DNA of 64,000 nt from Octopus sinensis (taxonomy: Eukaryota): contig NC_043006.1 in NCBI RefSeq assembly GCF_006345805.1, positions 33,852,001-33,916,000 on the forward strand, in the 5' to 3' direction. The position numbers are program-made. This document shows, piece after piece, positions 10,353 through 55,700 of the stretch (its first letter is position 1; each line of letters starts with the position of its first letter).

Positions 10353-13300
10353 GTATATCTTTCTCTTCTCTCATCAACGTGAAAAAAAAAAGAATAACTA
10401 AAACCATTGTTATGTTCTAACGTTGTACTACAACAATCTATTAATGCAATGCACATTTGTGTTGCACTGCACTGCACTGTCTTATTTTGCATCACCTCAC
10501 ACGGCACCTACAGTATTTATGTATTTTAGTTCAATGCAGTCCAATGCATTGGAAATATTGCTTTCATTTGATTTTGCTGTAGTTAATTACAGTTAAGCTT
10601 TGAGTTCAATTCCTGCTAAGATCACATTTGCTTTCCATCCTTTCGGAGTCAATAGTATAAAATATTAGTTGAAGAACTAGTCTCTACGATACCAAATAAC
10701 CCCCTCCCTTAAGTGTTTCTGAGATTGTCCCTAATAAGAAGCCCTTATTATTATTGTTATTTACAGAAGTGCTCCCTTCCAGTGAATTTGTGAAAACTGT
10801 GGCAGAAATGGTTTGGATGAAAGACCTACTTCTAAGCATGTGCTTGGAGATTGGAGGGCAACAGTTTGTTGAGGGTTCATGCCTTTGGTAGTAAGGCTGA
10901 TCCTGAATCTGTGGGATTCCTTGATTGGCCCCTACTTGGAGGCTCCCCTGCATCATTCATGTGATCACATACTTTGTCTAGTTCCATAGACTTTTGACTC
11001 ATTTCATTCTGCTTTCCCTATCTTAACCCTCCTCTTTTATGTCAAACCTTCACACAAATTGTAAACCCTCTTTGTAATGTCACCGTTATCTGATGCTCCT
11101 CTGGCAAATAAATCCCCCCCCCTCCTCCTCATCTTCCACTCCATCATCATCATCATCATTCAGAATCATTTGAGCATTGGATAGAATGCCTTAGGGTATT
11201 TCTTTCAGTTCTTTAAGGTCTGAGTTCAAATCCTGCTTATGCCTACTTTGCCTTTTATTCCCCACCAGGGTCGATAGCATAAAATTACTATCCAAATATT
11301 GGTGGCAATGATATCAAGTCATTCCCCTTAAAATTGCTGGCCTTGTGCTTAAATCAGAAACAATCACTTTCACTACATAATTAGTAGTGCAAAGCAGTGA
11401 AGCAAAACAAATGAACTTTTGGTCACATATATTTGTGACAGATTTTAACTCCTAAAGGTAATTTCACTGCAGGTACAAAGCCAAACAGGTAAAAACTGAC
11501 CAAGATTCACCAAACAAATTTTTTGTTGGTTGACTAAAGTTTACATCCCTTCAACCATTTGGGTCTCACTTCCCTCCGGTGTGTGATAAAGGGACAGAAA
11601 TCAGTGTCTTGCAGCTGAGGAGATAAAGGGCTTAACTCAGAGAAAGAGAGAGAGGGAAGGAGAGAAAGTTACAAATCTAAAGAATTTTCTGAGTTGTTGA
11701 CTGCAGACTTTGATTTTCCTTTATTTACTTAATCATTTCTTCATCATCACCATCATCGTCATCATCGTCGTTTAATGTCCACCTTTCATGCTAGCATCGG
11801 TGAGATGGTTTCACAAGAGCTGGCCAAGCAGAAGTCTGCACCAGACTTTTGTGACTGTTTTGGTAGGATTTTTACAGCTGGATTCTCTTCCTAAAACCAA
11901 CCACTCAGCAGAGTGGACTTTGTGCTTTTTATGTGGCACAAGCACAGGCGAGGTCATTATTTATGCATTTGTTTGTTTTGTAAAGCTTGGTTTAATCCTT
12001 GTAACTCCAACCTGCCTGGGACTGCCCTGGGTTCTATGATACAAACTTTGTCCTTTAAAATCATTGAAATTAAAACTTGCCACACAAATTTTGTGCTAAT
12101 ATATATTGTTCCAAACATCAGGTTAATAACGACAAAGTTGTTTTATTCAATTCTTTCTTTTTTCCAAAATCAATTGAAACCCAAACAATTTATTTTTAAC
12201 AGAAACATTCTAACAAAGGGTTTAAAACGGTAAAGTTCTCTTCACCCACTGTTGTGCCTATGTATTGTACCAAGAAGGAAATGAAAGACACAAATATGTT
12301 TATTGCATATTTTATGAAATGTTCCGATACTTTTTATCTGCTGCTTCACAGACAAATAGAATAACAGGTTGACAGACATAAAGGAACCAAAATTATTACA
12401 CAAAGCAAAATTCAGAACATTCTGTTTCATCATTGGTTTTACAATGTTATTCCATTCTGGCAGGAATTGAATGGAATCAGAATAGAGTATCTTCATTCTT
12501 TGCATTGTCTTTCATGAGAGGGTGGATGGGTAGGTCTATGGATACAGGAATAGCTTCTTTTTATCAAAAACCAGTGCAGCAAAACATGCCATATGTGCAT
12601 ATTACGACAAGAGAAGTATAGAAGTTATTGGCGCAGACTTGGAGTCTACTTTACCCCATATCAGCTCAAACCAAACTACTGCGTTGAGTGAAAAGTTTTG
12701 CAATATTTTGGTAACTTATTTGATTTATTCATCAATCTACAACAAAAGCAGTCAAGCATTCATAGTAGAGGCCATCATGTTGCACTGTCTGAAGCAACCT
12801 TTCTTCCAGGTCTTTGATCCCACATGAAGACCAGTTATGGTCCTTCAAGGTGAAGAACTCCTTCACTGAAGCTTTTTCTTGGTTGATGAAGCATCACGAG
12901 TGCAGGACGTGAGACATGGATCAGAAGTAGTAAAAATCTGAAGGAGATATTTTTCTGTAATCCAGTGGTTAAGCAAGGGCCACATTGTGGAACCTGTCAC
13001 GAAGCATGGGTGTTTTGAACACAAGGTGATGATCAGCATCTGGTGCAATTACGAGGGGTTAATTCATGGCGGGTTTGTTTCAGACAGTTGACCCATTGAT
13101 GCCAACTTGTATGCTGAACCACTGGAGAGGATGTATGCCATTGTGCAGCAAAAATACCCTGCATTGTTTAACTGAAACCAAGATCATCCACAGCAAGATA
13201 ACACAAAACCTCATTCCATTTGTAGTAAAGATTGTTTGCCAACATCACATGGCAGTCCTGGTTTAGGACGAATGTTGCTGTAATTTATCCCCAGCATACA

Positions 13301-52798: not shown

Positions 52799-55700
52799 TA
52801 ATAATAATAATAATAATAACAACAACAACAATAGTAAATTGCATCTTTTAACTGTACAATGTTTAGAGTATGTTATTTTCAAAAACCTACTCCTTTGTTT
52901 TATAATTTGTAAGTGTAACTTAATAAGTACACTAAAATAAATACTAACTCTTTATTATATAAATACCAGCTTAACTAATAAACTACAGAGGAATCCATTG
53001 GGGCCAGATTAAGGGTCACTTGAGTCATCTGAATAAAAAGACTGGCTGACAGCATTGAAGCAGGAGAAATTTCTTCTGTTCTGAGTATTCTTTTATTTGT
53101 TTTAGTGATTTGACTGCAGCCATGCTGGAGCACTGCCTTTAGCCAAACAAATCGACGTCAGGACTTATTTTTTGTAAGCCTAGTACTTATTTTATTGGCC
53201 TAACATGCCAGCATTGGTTGTCAAGCGATGGTGGGGGGACAAACGCAGACACACACACATATGTATATATATGACAGGCTTCTTTCAGTTTCCATCTATC
53301 AGATCCACTCACAAGGCTTTGGTCGGCCCGAGCCTATAGTAGAAGACACTTTCCCAAGGTGTCATGCAGTGGGACTGAACCTGAAACCATGTGGTTGATA
53401 AGCAAGCTTCTTACCACACAGCCACTCCTGCGCCTATGTTTAGGATCCACCAGCTTTGATAACAATAACTGCTTGATAACAATAACCATGACAATAATAA
53501 GCAGCTTCCACTGTATTTATTTATTATCTCTTATTTGTTTCAGTCATTTGAATTGCGGCCAGCTGGAGCACCACCTTGAACGGATTGGATGAACAAATTG
53601 ACACATGTACTTTTGTTATCAATCTTTTGTTGAACCATGAAGTAATGGATGGATGGGTGGATGGGTGGATGGATGGGTGGGTAGATGGGTGAATGGATGG
53701 ATGGGTGGATGGATAGATGGATAGATGGATGGATGGGTGGATGGATGGATGGATGGATGGGTGGATGGGTGGATGGGTGGATGGATGGGTGGATGGATTG
53801 ATGGATGGATAGATGGATGGGTGGATGGATAGGTGGATAGATGGGTAGATGGATAGATGGATGGGTGGATGGATGAATAGATGGAGGATGGGTGGCTGGA
53901 TGGGTGGATGGATGGATGTTCCTGAATTGCAAATGAATATTTTTCAAAGAGAGAGGGAGAGAGAGAGCTAATGTCCTAGTTGTTAGATCAAGATAGACTA
54001 CTTTGGCTGTCTATGTTGTTGTCACTTTGAAGTTCTCTGGCAATACAGCTATGCCTGACCTTCTGATATTACAAAGCAGTTTCTTTTTTTGTTTCTGATG
54101 ACCTGTTGCAGTAGAACTGGTCATCAATCATTGAATATTTTCCAAGGAGCTCATTTCCAATCTCATGATGTTGTCTGCCTCATGTGGGCAGACTTGATTA
54201 ATGGGTGCACTTCGATAACTGATCATTAGTAAATGCTGTTGGACGGATATGAAGTTACATTAAAAGGCTGCTTGATTCAATGTTAAGCCCCTGCCATCTC
54301 ATTTTCATTTTAAGCAGAGACAGTCTGTTTATGTAGAAATTTCACTGTTTATGTAGAAATTTCAGGTATCAGTTCGTAGTTTTAGGATTTTAAGATCAAT
54401 AACACAAATCTCATGTAATGTCCAAGTGAGACACCCAAATGTTGCTATGACTATTAATACTGCAAACACATTGAGGATCATTCATTTGTTGTACAAAGTT
54501 CTGAGGACCATATATTTTTACTTATATTTATTCTGGTGTTGTATTCTTTGGTTATGCATACAGATCTGAAGAAATCACAACATTTAGGGCACTAGATAAT
54601 TTCTGACCCTAATCTATAGGAATGTCAAAACAAATTCTACAACAATTTTTTCCAACCATTTTAGACCTATGGATCCCTTTAGTTCCTCTTCTGCTTTACA
54701 AGACCCTCATAATCAGTTAATGTTTTAAAAAATCCTATTATTCAACTTACGATGAAAGTAAACAAAGTTTGCTTTAGAAGCGTGGAGATGGTATTGAAAG
54801 ATACATAAATAATTTTATTCTCAAATGCATGATAATGCTAATAAAATTGCTTGAACAGGATAAACTATCCATATTTTGCAGAAAAATTCATTACCGTCTT
54901 ATAAAGCTAGATTTATAAATCCTAACATTGCAGAACAATTCGTTACTGGGCAGTTTTGCTCAATAGTAAAAGACTTGACATGTAATTACAGAGATATGAG
55001 TTCGAGTCTCATGGCTGGCCGGTAATGAATTTTTCAGTAATATATGGATAGTTTATCCTGTTCATGCTATTGTATTAGGATTGTCAGATGTTTGAGAATA
55101 AATTATTTCTGTATCTTTCAAATCCTATTATATTTTCATAATGAAATATTCTTTTCTGCTCTAGGTACAAGGCCTGAAATTTTGGGTACTTAATTTATCG
55201 ACCCCCCAAAATGATGAAAGGCAAAGTGGAATTTGAACTCAGAACATAAAGACAGATGAAATACCGCTAAGCATTTCACACGGCATGTTAACATTTCTGC
55301 CAGCTTGCTGCCATTTTCATAATGGAATATTATTAGGAATTGTATTATTATTGCTGGCAGAATTGTTAGCCCGCCGGGCAAAATGCTTCGCAGTATTTTG
55401 TCTGGCTTTACATTCTGAGTTTAAATACTGCTGAGGTTGACTTTACCTTTTCATCCTTTCAGGGTCGATAAATAAAGTACCAGTTGCATACTAGGGTCGA
55501 TCTAATTGACTGGCCCCCACCCCCAATATTTCAGGCCTTGTGCCTAGAATAGAAAAGGATATCTATAAAGGCAGCAAGCTGGCAGAATTATAAGCATGCC
55601 AGGCGAAATGCTTAGCAGTATTTCGTCTGTCTTTACATTCTGAGTTCAAATTCAGCCGAGGGCGATTTTTCCTTTCATCCTTTTGGGGTCGATGAAATAA

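What the first reader, a model, noticed from the sequence alone, without database searches (positions are those of the whole stretch)
13210..55130. Three unrelated non-coding fold-back elements share one architecture (tail + inverted repeat + 11-12 bp TSD) but carry different RNA modules
Seen: insertions at 13221-13706, 22497-22831 and 54741-55119 share no obvious sequence. Each has ~100-130 bp inverted arms, an unpaired 25-55 bp extension on one side only, and an 11-12 bp TSD. In two, the extension lies 5' of the single sense-oriented module (hammerhead or tRNA-like); in the third it lies 5' of the intact hammerhead copy. Known: Penelope-like elements often have an inverted 5' pseudo-LTR with a short tail and carry minimal hammerheads. 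DNA-transposon TIRs abut the TSD, which these do not on the tail side. Inference: a class of short non-autonomous RNAs mobilised in trans by PLE RT/GIY-YIG machinery, which repeat annotators could mislabel as MITEs.
Basis: partly seen in the sequence, partly recalled or inferred. Interest (0 to 1): 0.85.

Follow-up and report, generated by a model that had tools for sequence, protein, structure and literature searches.

The report
Penelope-style fold-back retroelement insertions
Three short, unrelated non-coding insertions share the lopsided inverted-repeat footprint typical of Penelope-like retrotransposons, so they are most likely copies made by that known machinery rather than a new kind of element.

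Summary
The architecture is real. All three insertions have 100-140 nt inverted arms, an extra unpaired stretch next to one arm, and a perfect 11-12 bp target-site duplication (TSD). They share no sequence. Bounded non-simple flanking repeats of that size occur at 55 of 5000 random placements.

The RNA modules hold up unevenly:
- **22497-22831:** a Penelope-type minimal hammerhead sits in each arm. These are the only 2 strict hits in the window, against 0 of 200 shuffles.
- **13221-13706:** only a degenerate hammerhead-like motif, with an extra base in the core.
- **54742-55119:** a sub-threshold tRNA-like stretch (14.2 bits, cut-off 29).
- Rfam finds no hammerhead in any of them.

An inverted 5'-truncated copy, a one-sided tail and a short TSD is the published insertion signature of Penelope-like elements (PLEs). 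Non-autonomous PLE passengers are also already in print.

No RT or GIY-YIG ORF lies in the window, and no eukaryotic genome or repeat library could be searched. So I cannot tell dedicated short elements from extremely 5'-truncated PLE ends.

Verdict: new members of a known kind, moderate interest. The tRNA-like element is the most novel part.

The parts
13210..13220 (.). E1 left copy of the TSD (CTCATTCCATT)
   Evidence: (family D2): 11 bp, perfect, bounded.
13221..13345 (-). E1 left arm. It is the 3' part of the longer minus-strand copy and abuts the TSD, with 2 nt of overlap at 13219-13220.
13340..13475 (-). E1 internal rod-like hairpin with the hammerhead-like core at its apex.
   Evidence: -48.8 kcal/mol, z = -5.05, 0 of 200 shuffles fold as well.
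13386..13427 (-). E1 degenerate hammerhead-like motif. CUGAUGA at 13423 to 13417, extra A at 13402 before GAAA, putative H17 at 13390.
   Evidence: relaxed descriptor only: 10 of 200 shuffled windows give at least one hit. No Rfam hit.
13532..13657 (+). E1 right arm, the inverted shorter copy.
13658..13706 (+). E1 tail: a 49-nt 3' extension of the right-arm copy with no partner on the left.
13707..13717 (.). E1 right copy of the TSD.
22486..22496 (.). E2 left copy of the TSD (ATCATGTGATG).
22497..22521 (-). E2 left extension (tail), 25 nt.
22522..22663 (-). E2 left arm. It holds a hammerhead copy at 22622 to 22577 on the minus strand, with non-palindromic ACAU at positions 15.1-16.1.
22664..22679 (.). 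E2 16-nt loop at the head-to-head junction, inside a 12-nt tandem pair at 22661-22684.
   Evidence: I1, D3.
22680..22821 (+). E2 right arm.
22721..22766 (+). E2 PLE-type minimal hammerhead. CUGAUGA at 22726-22732, bulged A at 22733, helix II 22734-22739 with 22748-22753, GAAA at 22754-22757, palindromic ACGU at 22757-22760, U17 at 22761. Helix I pairs 22721-22725 with 22762-22766.
   Evidence: strict descriptor: 2 hits in the window and 0 of 200 shuffles with any hit. Traits compared with passages. No Rfam hammerhead hit.
22822..22831 (+). E2 right extension of 10 nt, part of a run of 9-nt repeats at 22801-22836.
   Evidence: (D1).
22832..22842 (.). E2 right copy of the TSD.
54730..54741 (.). 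E3 left copy of the TSD (AAATCCTATTAT).
54742..54793 (-). E3 tail: a 52-nt 3' extension of the inverted left copy.
54794..54896 (-). E3 left arm, the inverted copy that lacks the tRNA-like part.
54897..54948 (.). E3 junction region. It has a near-palindrome at 54899-54918 and a weak partial repeat of the arm start at 54919-54946.
   Evidence: D1; 11 of 500 shuffles reach the score.
54949..55020 (+). E3 tRNA-like module. The T arm is intact, the acceptor stem has 6 of 7 pairs, and the D and anticodon arms are broken.
   Evidence: RF00005, 14.2 bits, below the gathering score of 29. ARAGORN finds none. Fold z = -1.15.
55020..55119 (+). E3 right arm. It starts at the last position of the tRNA-like match, carries a T5 run at 55030-55034, and abuts the TSD with 2 nt of overlap at 55120-55121.
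55120..55131 (.). E3 right copy of the TSD.
58167..58278 (-). Solo, non-inverted, shorter and decayed copy of the E2 unit (83% identical). Its hammerhead core is mutated and no TSD is recognisable.
   Evidence: (E = 1.5e-28).

Best explanation
Each element is the product of one old retrotransposition event of the Penelope-like (PLE) type.

**Proposed mechanism**
1. The endonuclease makes staggered cuts about 9-12 bp apart. This later gives the TSD.
2. Both target strands prime reverse transcription from the 3' region of a short non-coding RNA.
3. One cDNA starts at a distal site and so includes the 'tail'. The other starts at a proximal site 25-52 nt further in.
4. The two cDNAs meet head to head. 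The result is two inverted copies whose outer ends are both the element's 3' end.
5. One copy runs further 5' and keeps the upstream module: a hammerhead-like rod in E1 and a tRNA-like stretch in E3. In E2 both copies are about equally long, so each arm carries the hammerhead.

**Consequences**
- The fold-back loci themselves are probably dead-end products. A transcript would fold into a long hairpin that buries the ribozyme.

**Shown:** the anatomy, the TSDs, the PLE-type hammerhead in E2, and the solo shorter copy.

**Inferred:** priming on both strands, two start sites, and dependence on a PLE RT/GIY-YIG enzyme encoded elsewhere.

I lean towards short non-autonomous source RNAs for E1 and E3. 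For E2 I leave open whether it is simply the extreme 3' end (pLTR) of an autonomous PLE.
For: **Architecture**
- Inverted arms, a one-sided extension and a perfect TSD are present in 3 of 3 elements.
- Bounded non-simple TSD-like repeats occur at 55 of 5000 random placements, and abutting ones at 10 of 5000.

**Published PLE signature (passages read)**
- An inverted 5'-truncated copy plus a 30-40 bp tail at one end (PMC8557442).
- An inverted pLTR, a 31-bp tail at the 3' end of one inverted pLTR, and 8-10 bp TSDs. pLTRs alone mobilise captured non-coding sequence in trans (PMC3846280).
- The purified enzyme cleaves and extends both strands. RT starts at two adjacent internal sites, and the tail is the stretch between them. 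The authors call this signature unique to PLEs (PMC11167929).

**Hammerhead in E2**
- The strict descriptor finds only the 2 E2 copies in 128 kb of both strands, against 0 of 200 shuffles.
- It shows the bulged base after A9, the G10.1-C11.1 pair, palindromic 15.2-16.2 and a 5-bp helix I. All of these are listed for PLE minimal hammerheads.
- Its cut site lies 60-85 nt from the insertion ends. In the anole element the cut-site and RT-start figures quoted put that distance at about 85-92 nt (my subtraction).

**Against a TIR element**
- A solo, shorter, non-inverted E2-family copy exists. This fits 5' truncation.
- The termini are not inverted repeats of each other.

**Priming detail**
- The tail-less arms of E1 and E3 overlap the TSD by 2 nt, which is compatible with microhomology at priming.
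Against: - No RT or GIY-YIG domain lies anywhere in the window. No homology to any PLE could be tested.
- Only E2 has a convincing hammerhead. The E1 motif has an extra base in the catalytic core, and E3 has none.
- Rfam hammerhead models match nothing.
- Two tails (49 and 52 nt) are longer than the 30-40 nt reported. E2 has extra sequence on both sides.
- No motif or fold is shared by the three 3' ends. The z-scores are -3.65, -0.29 and +1.43.
- Each family is seen once as a fold-back. I could not check whether the same two alternative 3' ends recur in other copies.
- The host organism was not identified.
Confidence: 0.62

Rival explanations
1. These are not a separate class. They are ordinary, extremely 5'-truncated insertions of autonomous PLEs, seen as head-to-head pairs of pLTR 3' ends. 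This uses the same machinery as the best explanation but needs no dedicated short RNAs.
For: [quoted passage not shown]
- Hammerheads normally sit in pLTRs close to the RT start, as in E2.
- The solo E2-family copy is shorter at its 5' side than the arms, so this family has no fixed 5' end.
Against: - The longer copy of E3 starts with a tRNA-like module. E1 has a 130-nt structured rod. Neither feature is described for pLTRs in the passages I read.
- Neither element shows any coding remnant.
- This cannot be decided without the genome.
Confidence: 0.3
2. They are MITEs or fold-back DNA transposons, for example Mutator-type elements with long TIRs and 9-11 bp TSDs, moved by a transposase.
For: - The arms are long inverted repeats and the TSDs are 11-12 bp.
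- From memory, Mutator-type elements give about 9-11 bp TSDs.
- Mutator and MITE families are annotated in an octopus genome, if the host is a cephalopod.
Against: - In E1 and E3, 49 and 52 nt of non-inverted sequence separate one arm from the TSD. In E2 the gaps are 25 and 10 nt.
- The element termini are not inverted repeats of each other.
- A solo single-arm copy of the E2 unit exists.
- The arms carry a sense-oriented PLE-type hammerhead.
Confidence: 0.06
3. They are LINE-mobilised SINE-like retroposons. The inverted duplication arose by twin priming or template switching between two RNA molecules.
For: - E3 has a tRNA-like head with an intact B-box-like T arm.
- An unrelated tRNA-like SINE is abundant in the window, with 8 copies. 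One of its insertions is a tandem dimer with a single TSD, so multi-copy insertions occur here.
Against: - From memory, classical twin priming inverts a different part of the same RNA. It does not duplicate the 3' end.
- No A-tail closes the 3' ends, and apart from the 9-nt repeats at E2's right end (D1) there is no simple repeat there.
- The two clear insertions of the abundant SINE have 17- and 19-bp TSDs, against 11-12 bp here.
- E2 has a PLE-type hammerhead.
- The T5 run 10 nt after the tRNA-like part of E3 would stop Pol III.
Confidence: 0.1
4. They are local palindromic duplications from replication or repair errors, and are not mobile elements.
For: The window holds other decayed palindromes without recognisable TSDs.
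Against: - All three have perfect, bounded 11-12 bp direct repeats exactly at the borders.
- A dispersed second copy of the E2 unit lies 35 kb away.
Confidence: 0.02

Closest known systems
Insertion structure of endonuclease-bearing Penelope-like elements: pLTR, inverted pLTR, 'tail' and TSD (PMC3846280, PMC8557442, PMC11167929; passages read)
   Same: - Head-to-head inverted copies whose outer ends are 3' ends.
- An optional extension at the 3' end of only one of them.
- A short variable TSD.
- A hammerhead near the 3' end (E2).
- A palindrome or small loop at the inverted junction.
   Different: - No ORF, and total size only 335-486 bp.
- Two tails of 49-52 nt, against 30-40 nt reported.
- TSDs of 11-12 bp (9-12 bp if the 2-nt overlaps are discounted), against 8-10 bp in the rotifer examples.
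- E3 has a tRNA-like module instead of a hammerhead.
Metazoan non-LTR retrozymes (PMC7229834, passages; bioRxiv 10.64898/2026.07.22.740005, abstract and sections 14 and 16)
   Same: - Short, low-GC, non-coding elements with type I hammerheads.
- Proposed to depend on PLEs.
- TSDs larger than 4 bp when present.
   Different: - Retrozymes are defined by tandem repeats and circular RNAs.
- These loci are single fold-backs with no tandem copy, so their hammerheads lie on opposite strands and cannot pair as a tandem dimer.
- Expression was not testable.
Non-autonomous Chlamys elements such as MRC1 (PMC8557442, passage) and pLTR-flanked captured sequences in Adineta vaga (PMC3846280, passage)
   Same: Non-coding passengers integrated by PLE machinery, recognised by the PLE-type repeat structure and TSDs.
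   Different: - Those show sequence similarity to an autonomous PLE's 3' end or pLTR. That could not be tested here.
- The hosts are different.
Schistosome SINE-like hammerhead retroposons (Sm-alpha / Sj-alpha). This comparison is recalled from memory and was not checked in any call beyond mentions of Schistosoma hammerheads.
   Same: A short retroposon that combines Pol III-type promoter features with a hammerhead.
   Different: - Here the tRNA-like module and the hammerhead are in different elements.
- From memory, no fold-back with tail is described for those elements.
MITEs and long-TIR Mutator-type elements
   Same: Small size, long inverted repeats and a TSD. An automatic MITE finder could flag them.
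   Different: - The arms do not reach both termini.
- A solo single-arm copy exists.
- A ribozyme motif lies in sense orientation within the arm.

Membership tests
Penelope-like element (autonomous, EN+) | A single ORF with a telomerase-like RT and a GIY-YIG endonuclease. | tested here: not met
   Pfam found no RT or GIY-YIG in 121 ORFs of at least 90 aa, nor in 250 of 314 ORFs of 55-89 aa (64 low-complexity ORFs dropped). The elements are non-coding.
PLE-type insertion signature | An inverted 5'-truncated copy adjacent to the main copy, giving inverted repeats. | tested here: met
   arms of 100-142 nt, 87-92% identical without gaps, in 3 of 3 elements.
PLE-type insertion signature | A 'tail' extension of about 30-40 bp at the 3' end of only one of the inverted copies. 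| tested here: met
   49 nt (E1), 52 nt (E3), and 25 nt against 10 nt (E2). The lengths lie outside the reported 30-40 nt range, and E2 is not strictly one-sided.
PLE-type insertion signature | A short target-site duplication of variable length. | tested here: met
   11, 11 and 12 bp, all perfect. Reported examples are 8-10 bp.
PLE-type insertion signature | The 3' end or pLTR is homologous to an autonomous PLE of the same genome. | not testable with these tools
   No eukaryotic genome or repeat library was available. There is no PLE in the window.
PLE minimal hammerhead (Cervera & de la Pena 2014) | CUGAUGA and GAAA core, an unpaired base between positions 9 and 10.1, a G10.1-C11.1 pair, palindromic 15.2-16.2, a short helix I, and H17. 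| tested here: met
   E2 right arm, 22721-22766, against the traits quoted. The left-arm copy lacks the palindrome. E1 fails because of an extra A before G12. E3 has no motif.
PLE minimal hammerhead (Cervera & de la Pena 2014) | A match to curated hammerhead covariance models. | tested here: not met
   There is no Rfam hammerhead hit at the gathering score or at E <= 10. Whether those models can detect minimal forms lacking helix III was not tested.
PLE minimal hammerhead (Cervera & de la Pena 2014) | Self-cleavage, as a dimer. | not testable with these tools
   This needs an in vitro transcription and cleavage assay.
Metazoan non-LTR retrozyme | A type I hammerhead within short head-to-tail tandem repeats. 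| tested here: not met
   there is no direct or tandem copy at any of the three loci, only inverted copies.
Metazoan non-LTR retrozyme | Expressed as small circular RNAs. | not testable with these tools
   No transcriptome data were available.
tRNA-derived SINE | A tRNA-related head with A and B boxes. | tested here: inconclusive
   RF00005 gives a full-length alignment at 14.2 bits (gathering score 29). The T arm is intact and the D and anticodon arms are broken. ARAGORN finds none.
tRNA-derived SINE | The unit can be transcribed by Pol III, with no internal terminator. This criterion is from general knowledge. | tested here: not met
   A T5 run lies at 55030-55034, 10 nt after the tRNA-like part, and is present in both arms.
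tRNA-derived SINE | A 3' end with an A-rich or simple-repeat tail, or a LINE-derived tail. | tested here: inconclusive
   There is no A-tail or simple repeat at either 3' end of E3. LINE homology was not testable.
MITE / TIR DNA transposon | Terminal inverted repeats at both termini, directly next to the TSD. | tested here: not met
   49, 52, or 25 and 10 nt of non-inverted sequence lie between the arm and the TSD.
MITE / TIR DNA transposon | All copies carry both TIRs. | tested here: not met
   A solo single-arm E2-family copy lies at 58167-58278. Only one extra copy was available.

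The most novel reading that the evidence does not exclude
In this genome, PLE machinery serves a guild of unrelated small RNAs that share only an RNA-processing module placed upstream of the reverse-transcribed 3' body. That module is either a self-cleaving hammerhead or a tRNA-like structure cut by host RNase P/Z.

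On this reading E3 would be the first tRNA-like retroposon partnered with a PLE rather than a LINE. Its inverted copy starts within 1 nt of the predicted RNase Z site at 55020. The T5 run just downstream argues that the tRNA-like part serves as a processing signal rather than a Pol III promoter for the whole unit.
Probability: 0.15. Interest if true: 0.7.

Novelty: new member of a known kind. Interest (0 to 1): 0.4.

Why it matters
- If these are PLE-made, very short non-coding fold-backs can be recognised as retroelement products from anatomy alone: asymmetric tail, TSD and ribozyme.
- Repeat pipelines that call any short inverted-repeat element with a TSD a MITE would then misclassify part of such genomes.
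- The tRNA-like element would extend the list of PLE passengers beyond hammerhead-bearing retrozymes, and would give a testable SINE-PLE partnership.
- As it stands, the finding mainly adds examples to a published pattern.

Tried and rejected
- **Rfam.** I ran the whole window at gathering scores and each element at E <= 10. There were no hammerhead hits. E2 matched only miRNA-precursor models, far below threshold, which reflects its long hairpin.
- **ARAGORN.** No tRNA found.
- **Other copies in the window.** I searched by BLAST. There were none for E1 or E3, and one solo copy for E2.
- **The solo copy at 58167-58278.** It has no TSD of 8 bp or more. Its apparent further 5' homology is not significant: 163 and 95 of 500 shuffles reach the score.
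- **Older related copy under E1.** The flank similarities at 13122-13138 and 13713-13733 are marginal (E = 0.029 and 0.57), so I dropped this idea.
- **Shared 3'-terminal fold.** None found.
- **Six-frame Pfam scan of long stretches.** Not possible. I replaced it with ORF sets.
- **Host identification.** The mariner fragment is about 60% identical to proteins from octopus, lizard and crustaceans, so it is uninformative.
- **First TSD control.** It was inflated by microsatellites and long repeats (167 of 3000). A second attempt had a faulty abutment test. One search is the valid control.
- **Not done.**
  - I ran no genome-wide BLAST and no Repbase or Dfam comparison. No eukaryotic collection was on hand, and the one open contig collection holds only bacteria and archaea.
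  - Paper supplements were closed. The octopus TE library and the PLE family lists could already contain these families.
- **Literature.** Four searches found no paper describing a tRNA-headed element mobilised by a PLE.

Full report

The three loci were read directly and analysed for repeats.

| Element | Span | TSD | Arms | Unpaired extension |
|---|---|---|---|---|
| E1 | 13221-13706 | 11 bp perfect, 13210-13220 / 13707-13717 | 13221-13345 and 13532-13657 | 49 nt, right only (13658-13706) |
| E2 | 22497-22831 | 11 bp perfect, 22486-22496 / 22832-22842 | 22522-22663 and 22680-22821, around a 16-nt loop | 25 nt left, 10 nt right |
| E3 | 54742-55119 | 12 bp perfect, 54730-54741 / 55120-55131 | 54794-54896 and 55020-55119 | 52 nt, left only (54742-54793) |

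- BLAST between the elements gives nothing better than a 15-nt match (E = 0.047), so they are unrelated in sequence.
- A control on random placements of the same sizes found a bounded, non-simple 11-20 bp flanking repeat in 55 of 5000 cases. One abutting the arm end occurred in 10 of 5000.
- Two earlier versions of this control were flawed. One search was inflated by microsatellites and one search had a faulty abutment test.
- Of 13 inverted-repeat candidates in the window, only these three have such a duplication.
- The architecture is therefore real and not chance.
- The claim of 'one side only' is not exact for E2.

**2. The RNA modules**

*Database scans.* Rfam finds nothing at gathering thresholds in the whole window. 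It finds no hammerhead even at E <= 10 in any of the three elements.

*My own descriptor.* I wrote a descriptor with these requirements:
- helix I of at least 4 bp;
- CUGANGA;
- 0-1 unpaired base;
- helix II of at least 4 bp closed by G10.1-C11.1;
- GAAA;
- 0-12 nt, then U16.1 and H17.

*E2.*
- The descriptor hits exactly twice in both strands of the window, once in each arm of E2. It hit in 0 of 200 dinucleotide shuffles.
- The right-arm copy (22721-22766) has every trait that Cervera and de la Pena list as recurrent in PLE minimal hammerheads (PMC4209133, passages):
  - a base between A9 and 10.1;
  - the G10.1-C11.1 pair;
  - a palindromic 15.2-16.2, which here makes ACGU;
  - a short helix I.
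- The left-arm copy differs by one base that breaks the palindrome.

*E1.*
- The motif (minus strand, 13427 to 13386) passes only a descriptor that I relaxed after seeing it. That version allows helix II of 3 bp and an extra base before G12.
- The relaxed version hits in 10 of 200 shuffled windows, with a mean of 0.07 hits per window.
- It is unlikely to sit inside a 486-bp element by chance, but the extra A is in the catalytic core.
- I call it hammerhead-like and probably inactive or decayed.
- It sits at the apex of a 130-nt rod (-48.8 kcal/mol, z = -5.05, 0 of 200 shuffles).

*E3.*
- There is no hammerhead-like motif.
- Its tRNA-like stretch (54949-55020) aligns end to end with the tRNA model at 14.2 bits, against a gathering score of 29.
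- The T arm is perfect, the acceptor stem has 6 of 7 pairs, and the D and anticodon arms are broken.
- ARAGORN rejects it, and its fold is unremarkable.

**3. What the architecture means**

The PLE literature describes this footprint (passages read, not whole papers):
- Insertions are heavily 5'-truncated.
- They often carry an inverted truncated copy at the 5' side.
- A 30-40 bp 'tail' is often present at only one end (PMC8557442).
- In the same rotifer paper, pLTRs alone suffice to move unrelated captured sequence in trans, and palindromes mark the inverted junction (PMC3846280).
- The purified anole enzyme cleaves and extends both target strands. It starts reverse transcription at two adjacent internal sites, and the sequence between them is the tail. 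The authors call this signature unique to PLEs (PMC11167929).

All three elements fit this picture:
- Both outer ends are 3' ends of the same sequence.
- One outer end is extended.
- The whole insert is bracketed by a short duplication.
- In E1 and E3 the tail-less arm overlaps the duplication by 2 nt. The TSDs could therefore be 9-11 and 10-12 bp.
- In E2 the hammerhead cut site lies 60-70 nt from the right end and 85 nt from the left end. In the anole element the corresponding distance is about 85-92 nt (my subtraction from the figures quoted).

**4. Against the main rivals**

*A TIR transposon or MITE would need inverted termini next to the duplication.*
- Here 49, 52, or 25 and 10 nt of non-inverted sequence intervene, and the termini are not inverted repeats of each other.
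- A fourth, solo and non-inverted copy of the E2 unit lies at 58167-58278. It is 83% identical (E = 1.5e-28), shorter at its 5' side, and has a mutated ribozyme core. This is what 5'-truncating reverse transcription leaves. It is not what a MITE leaves.
- The solo copy has no recognisable duplication. Its apparent further 5' homology is not significant.

*A LINE-driven SINE insertion with twin priming is less likely.*
- From memory, twin priming does not duplicate the 3' end.
- No A-tail closes the 3' ends, and only E2's right end carries a short repeat run (9-nt units, D1).
- The two clear insertions of the abundant ordinary SINE in this window have 17- and 19-bp duplications, against 11-12 bp here.

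**5. What remains open**

- No RT or GIY-YIG domain is in the window. Pfam was run on 121 ORFs of at least 90 aa and on 250 of 314 ORFs of 55-89 aa, after 64 low-complexity ORFs were dropped.
- The only transposase-like hit is a mariner fragment at 15395-15844.
- No eukaryotic genome, Repbase or Dfam could be searched. I could therefore not test whether the arms match a PLE pLTR, or whether the two alternative 3' ends recur.
- I also could not test whether there are full-length short copies with a common 5' end.
- E2 may thus simply be a head-to-head pair of extreme 3' ends of an autonomous PLE.
- E1 and E3 look more like dedicated short units, because of the structured rod and the tRNA-like head. 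This is inference.
- The three 3' ends share no motif or fold.
- The host was not identified. If it is right, PLEs and huge numbers of unclassified SINEs are known there (PMC13282606, passages; PMC8967140, passages).

**6. E3 in more detail**

- The right arm begins at 55020, which is the last position of the tRNA-like match. The inverted copy therefore starts within 1 nt of where RNase Z would cut a tRNA precursor.
- A T5 run at 55030-55034, present in both arms, would terminate Pol III 10 nt after the tRNA-like part. This argues against a classical Pol III SINE.
- It leaves three readings:
  - a processing signal;
  - a captured tRNA pseudogene with its terminator;
  - coincidence.
- With one copy, I cannot choose between them.
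- The junction region also holds a near-palindrome and a weak partial repeat of the arm start (11 of 500 shuffles).

**7. An unexplained detail**

- The arms differ at 8.8% of non-CpG sites (15 transitions and 20 transversions in all), yet all 34 duplicated target bases are identical.
- If all arm divergence arose after insertion, this has P = 0.044.
- Ascertainment favours perfect duplications, so this is only a hint. It could mean that the two arms came from non-identical templates or from error-prone copying.

**8. Novelty**

- The footprint is the known PLE one.
- Non-autonomous, PLE-dependent elements are already proposed or described:
  - metazoan retrozymes (PMC7229834, passages);
  - the 2026 preprint 10.64898/2026.07.22.740005 (abstract and sections 14 and 16);
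  - a remark in a curation guide (PMC8969392);
  - non-autonomous Chlamys/MRC1;
  - captured sequences in rotifers.
- These loci are not retrozymes in the defined sense, because they are not tandem.
- Four literature searches found no tRNA-headed element tied to a PLE. Repeat databases and paper supplements were not visible, so prior annotation cannot be excluded.

**9. Verdict**

- These are new members of a known kind, and interest is moderate.

Noticed in passing
window 55132-55801: Three copies of an abundant tRNA-like SINE of about 215 nt (8 copies in the window).
- One inverted copy (55151-55312) is flanked by a 19-bp duplication with 1 mismatch (55132-55150 / 55313-55331).
- A head-to-tail dimer (55346-55784) is flanked by a single 17-bp duplication (55329-55345 / 55785-55801). 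The dimer therefore went in as one unit.
   Followed up: partly
window 55120-55345 (original target of about 50 bp): E3, the inverted SINE copy and the SINE dimer inserted into adjacent or overlapping AT-rich target sites. Their duplications touch or overlap by 3 nt. This looks like a local insertion hotspot.
   Followed up: no
window 13413-13433 vs 13713-13733, and 13122-13138 vs 13294-13310: The flanks of E1 contain two short stretches resembling E1's interior (18 of 21 nt direct, and 16 of 17 nt inverted). BLAST significance is marginal (E = 0.57 and 0.029), so this is probably chance. It could be a trace of an older related copy.
   Followed up: partly
window 2678-2985, 44103-44452, 48575-48815, 60717-60879, 1020-2209: Further inverted-repeat or palindromic structures (69-86% identity) with no recognisable non-simple target duplication. 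They may be older fold-back insertions or unrelated repeats.
   Followed up: partly
window 15395-15844 (-): A fragment of a mariner-type transposase (Pfam Transposase_1, E = 7.7e-06). It is about 60% identical to SETMAR-like or mariner proteins of octopus, a lizard and crustaceans.
   Followed up: partly
window 22454-22469 and 22801-22836: E2 inserted 17 nt downstream of a (GT)n run. Its right 3' end consists of 9-nt imperfect repeats. A microsatellite bias is reported for some PLE clades. With n = 1, no conclusion can be drawn.
   Followed up: no
E1, E2 and E3 arms compared with their TSDs: The arms differ at 8.8% of non-CpG sites, with more transversions (20) than transitions (15). All 34 duplicated target bases are identical (P = 0.044 under purely post-insertion decay).
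   Followed up: partly
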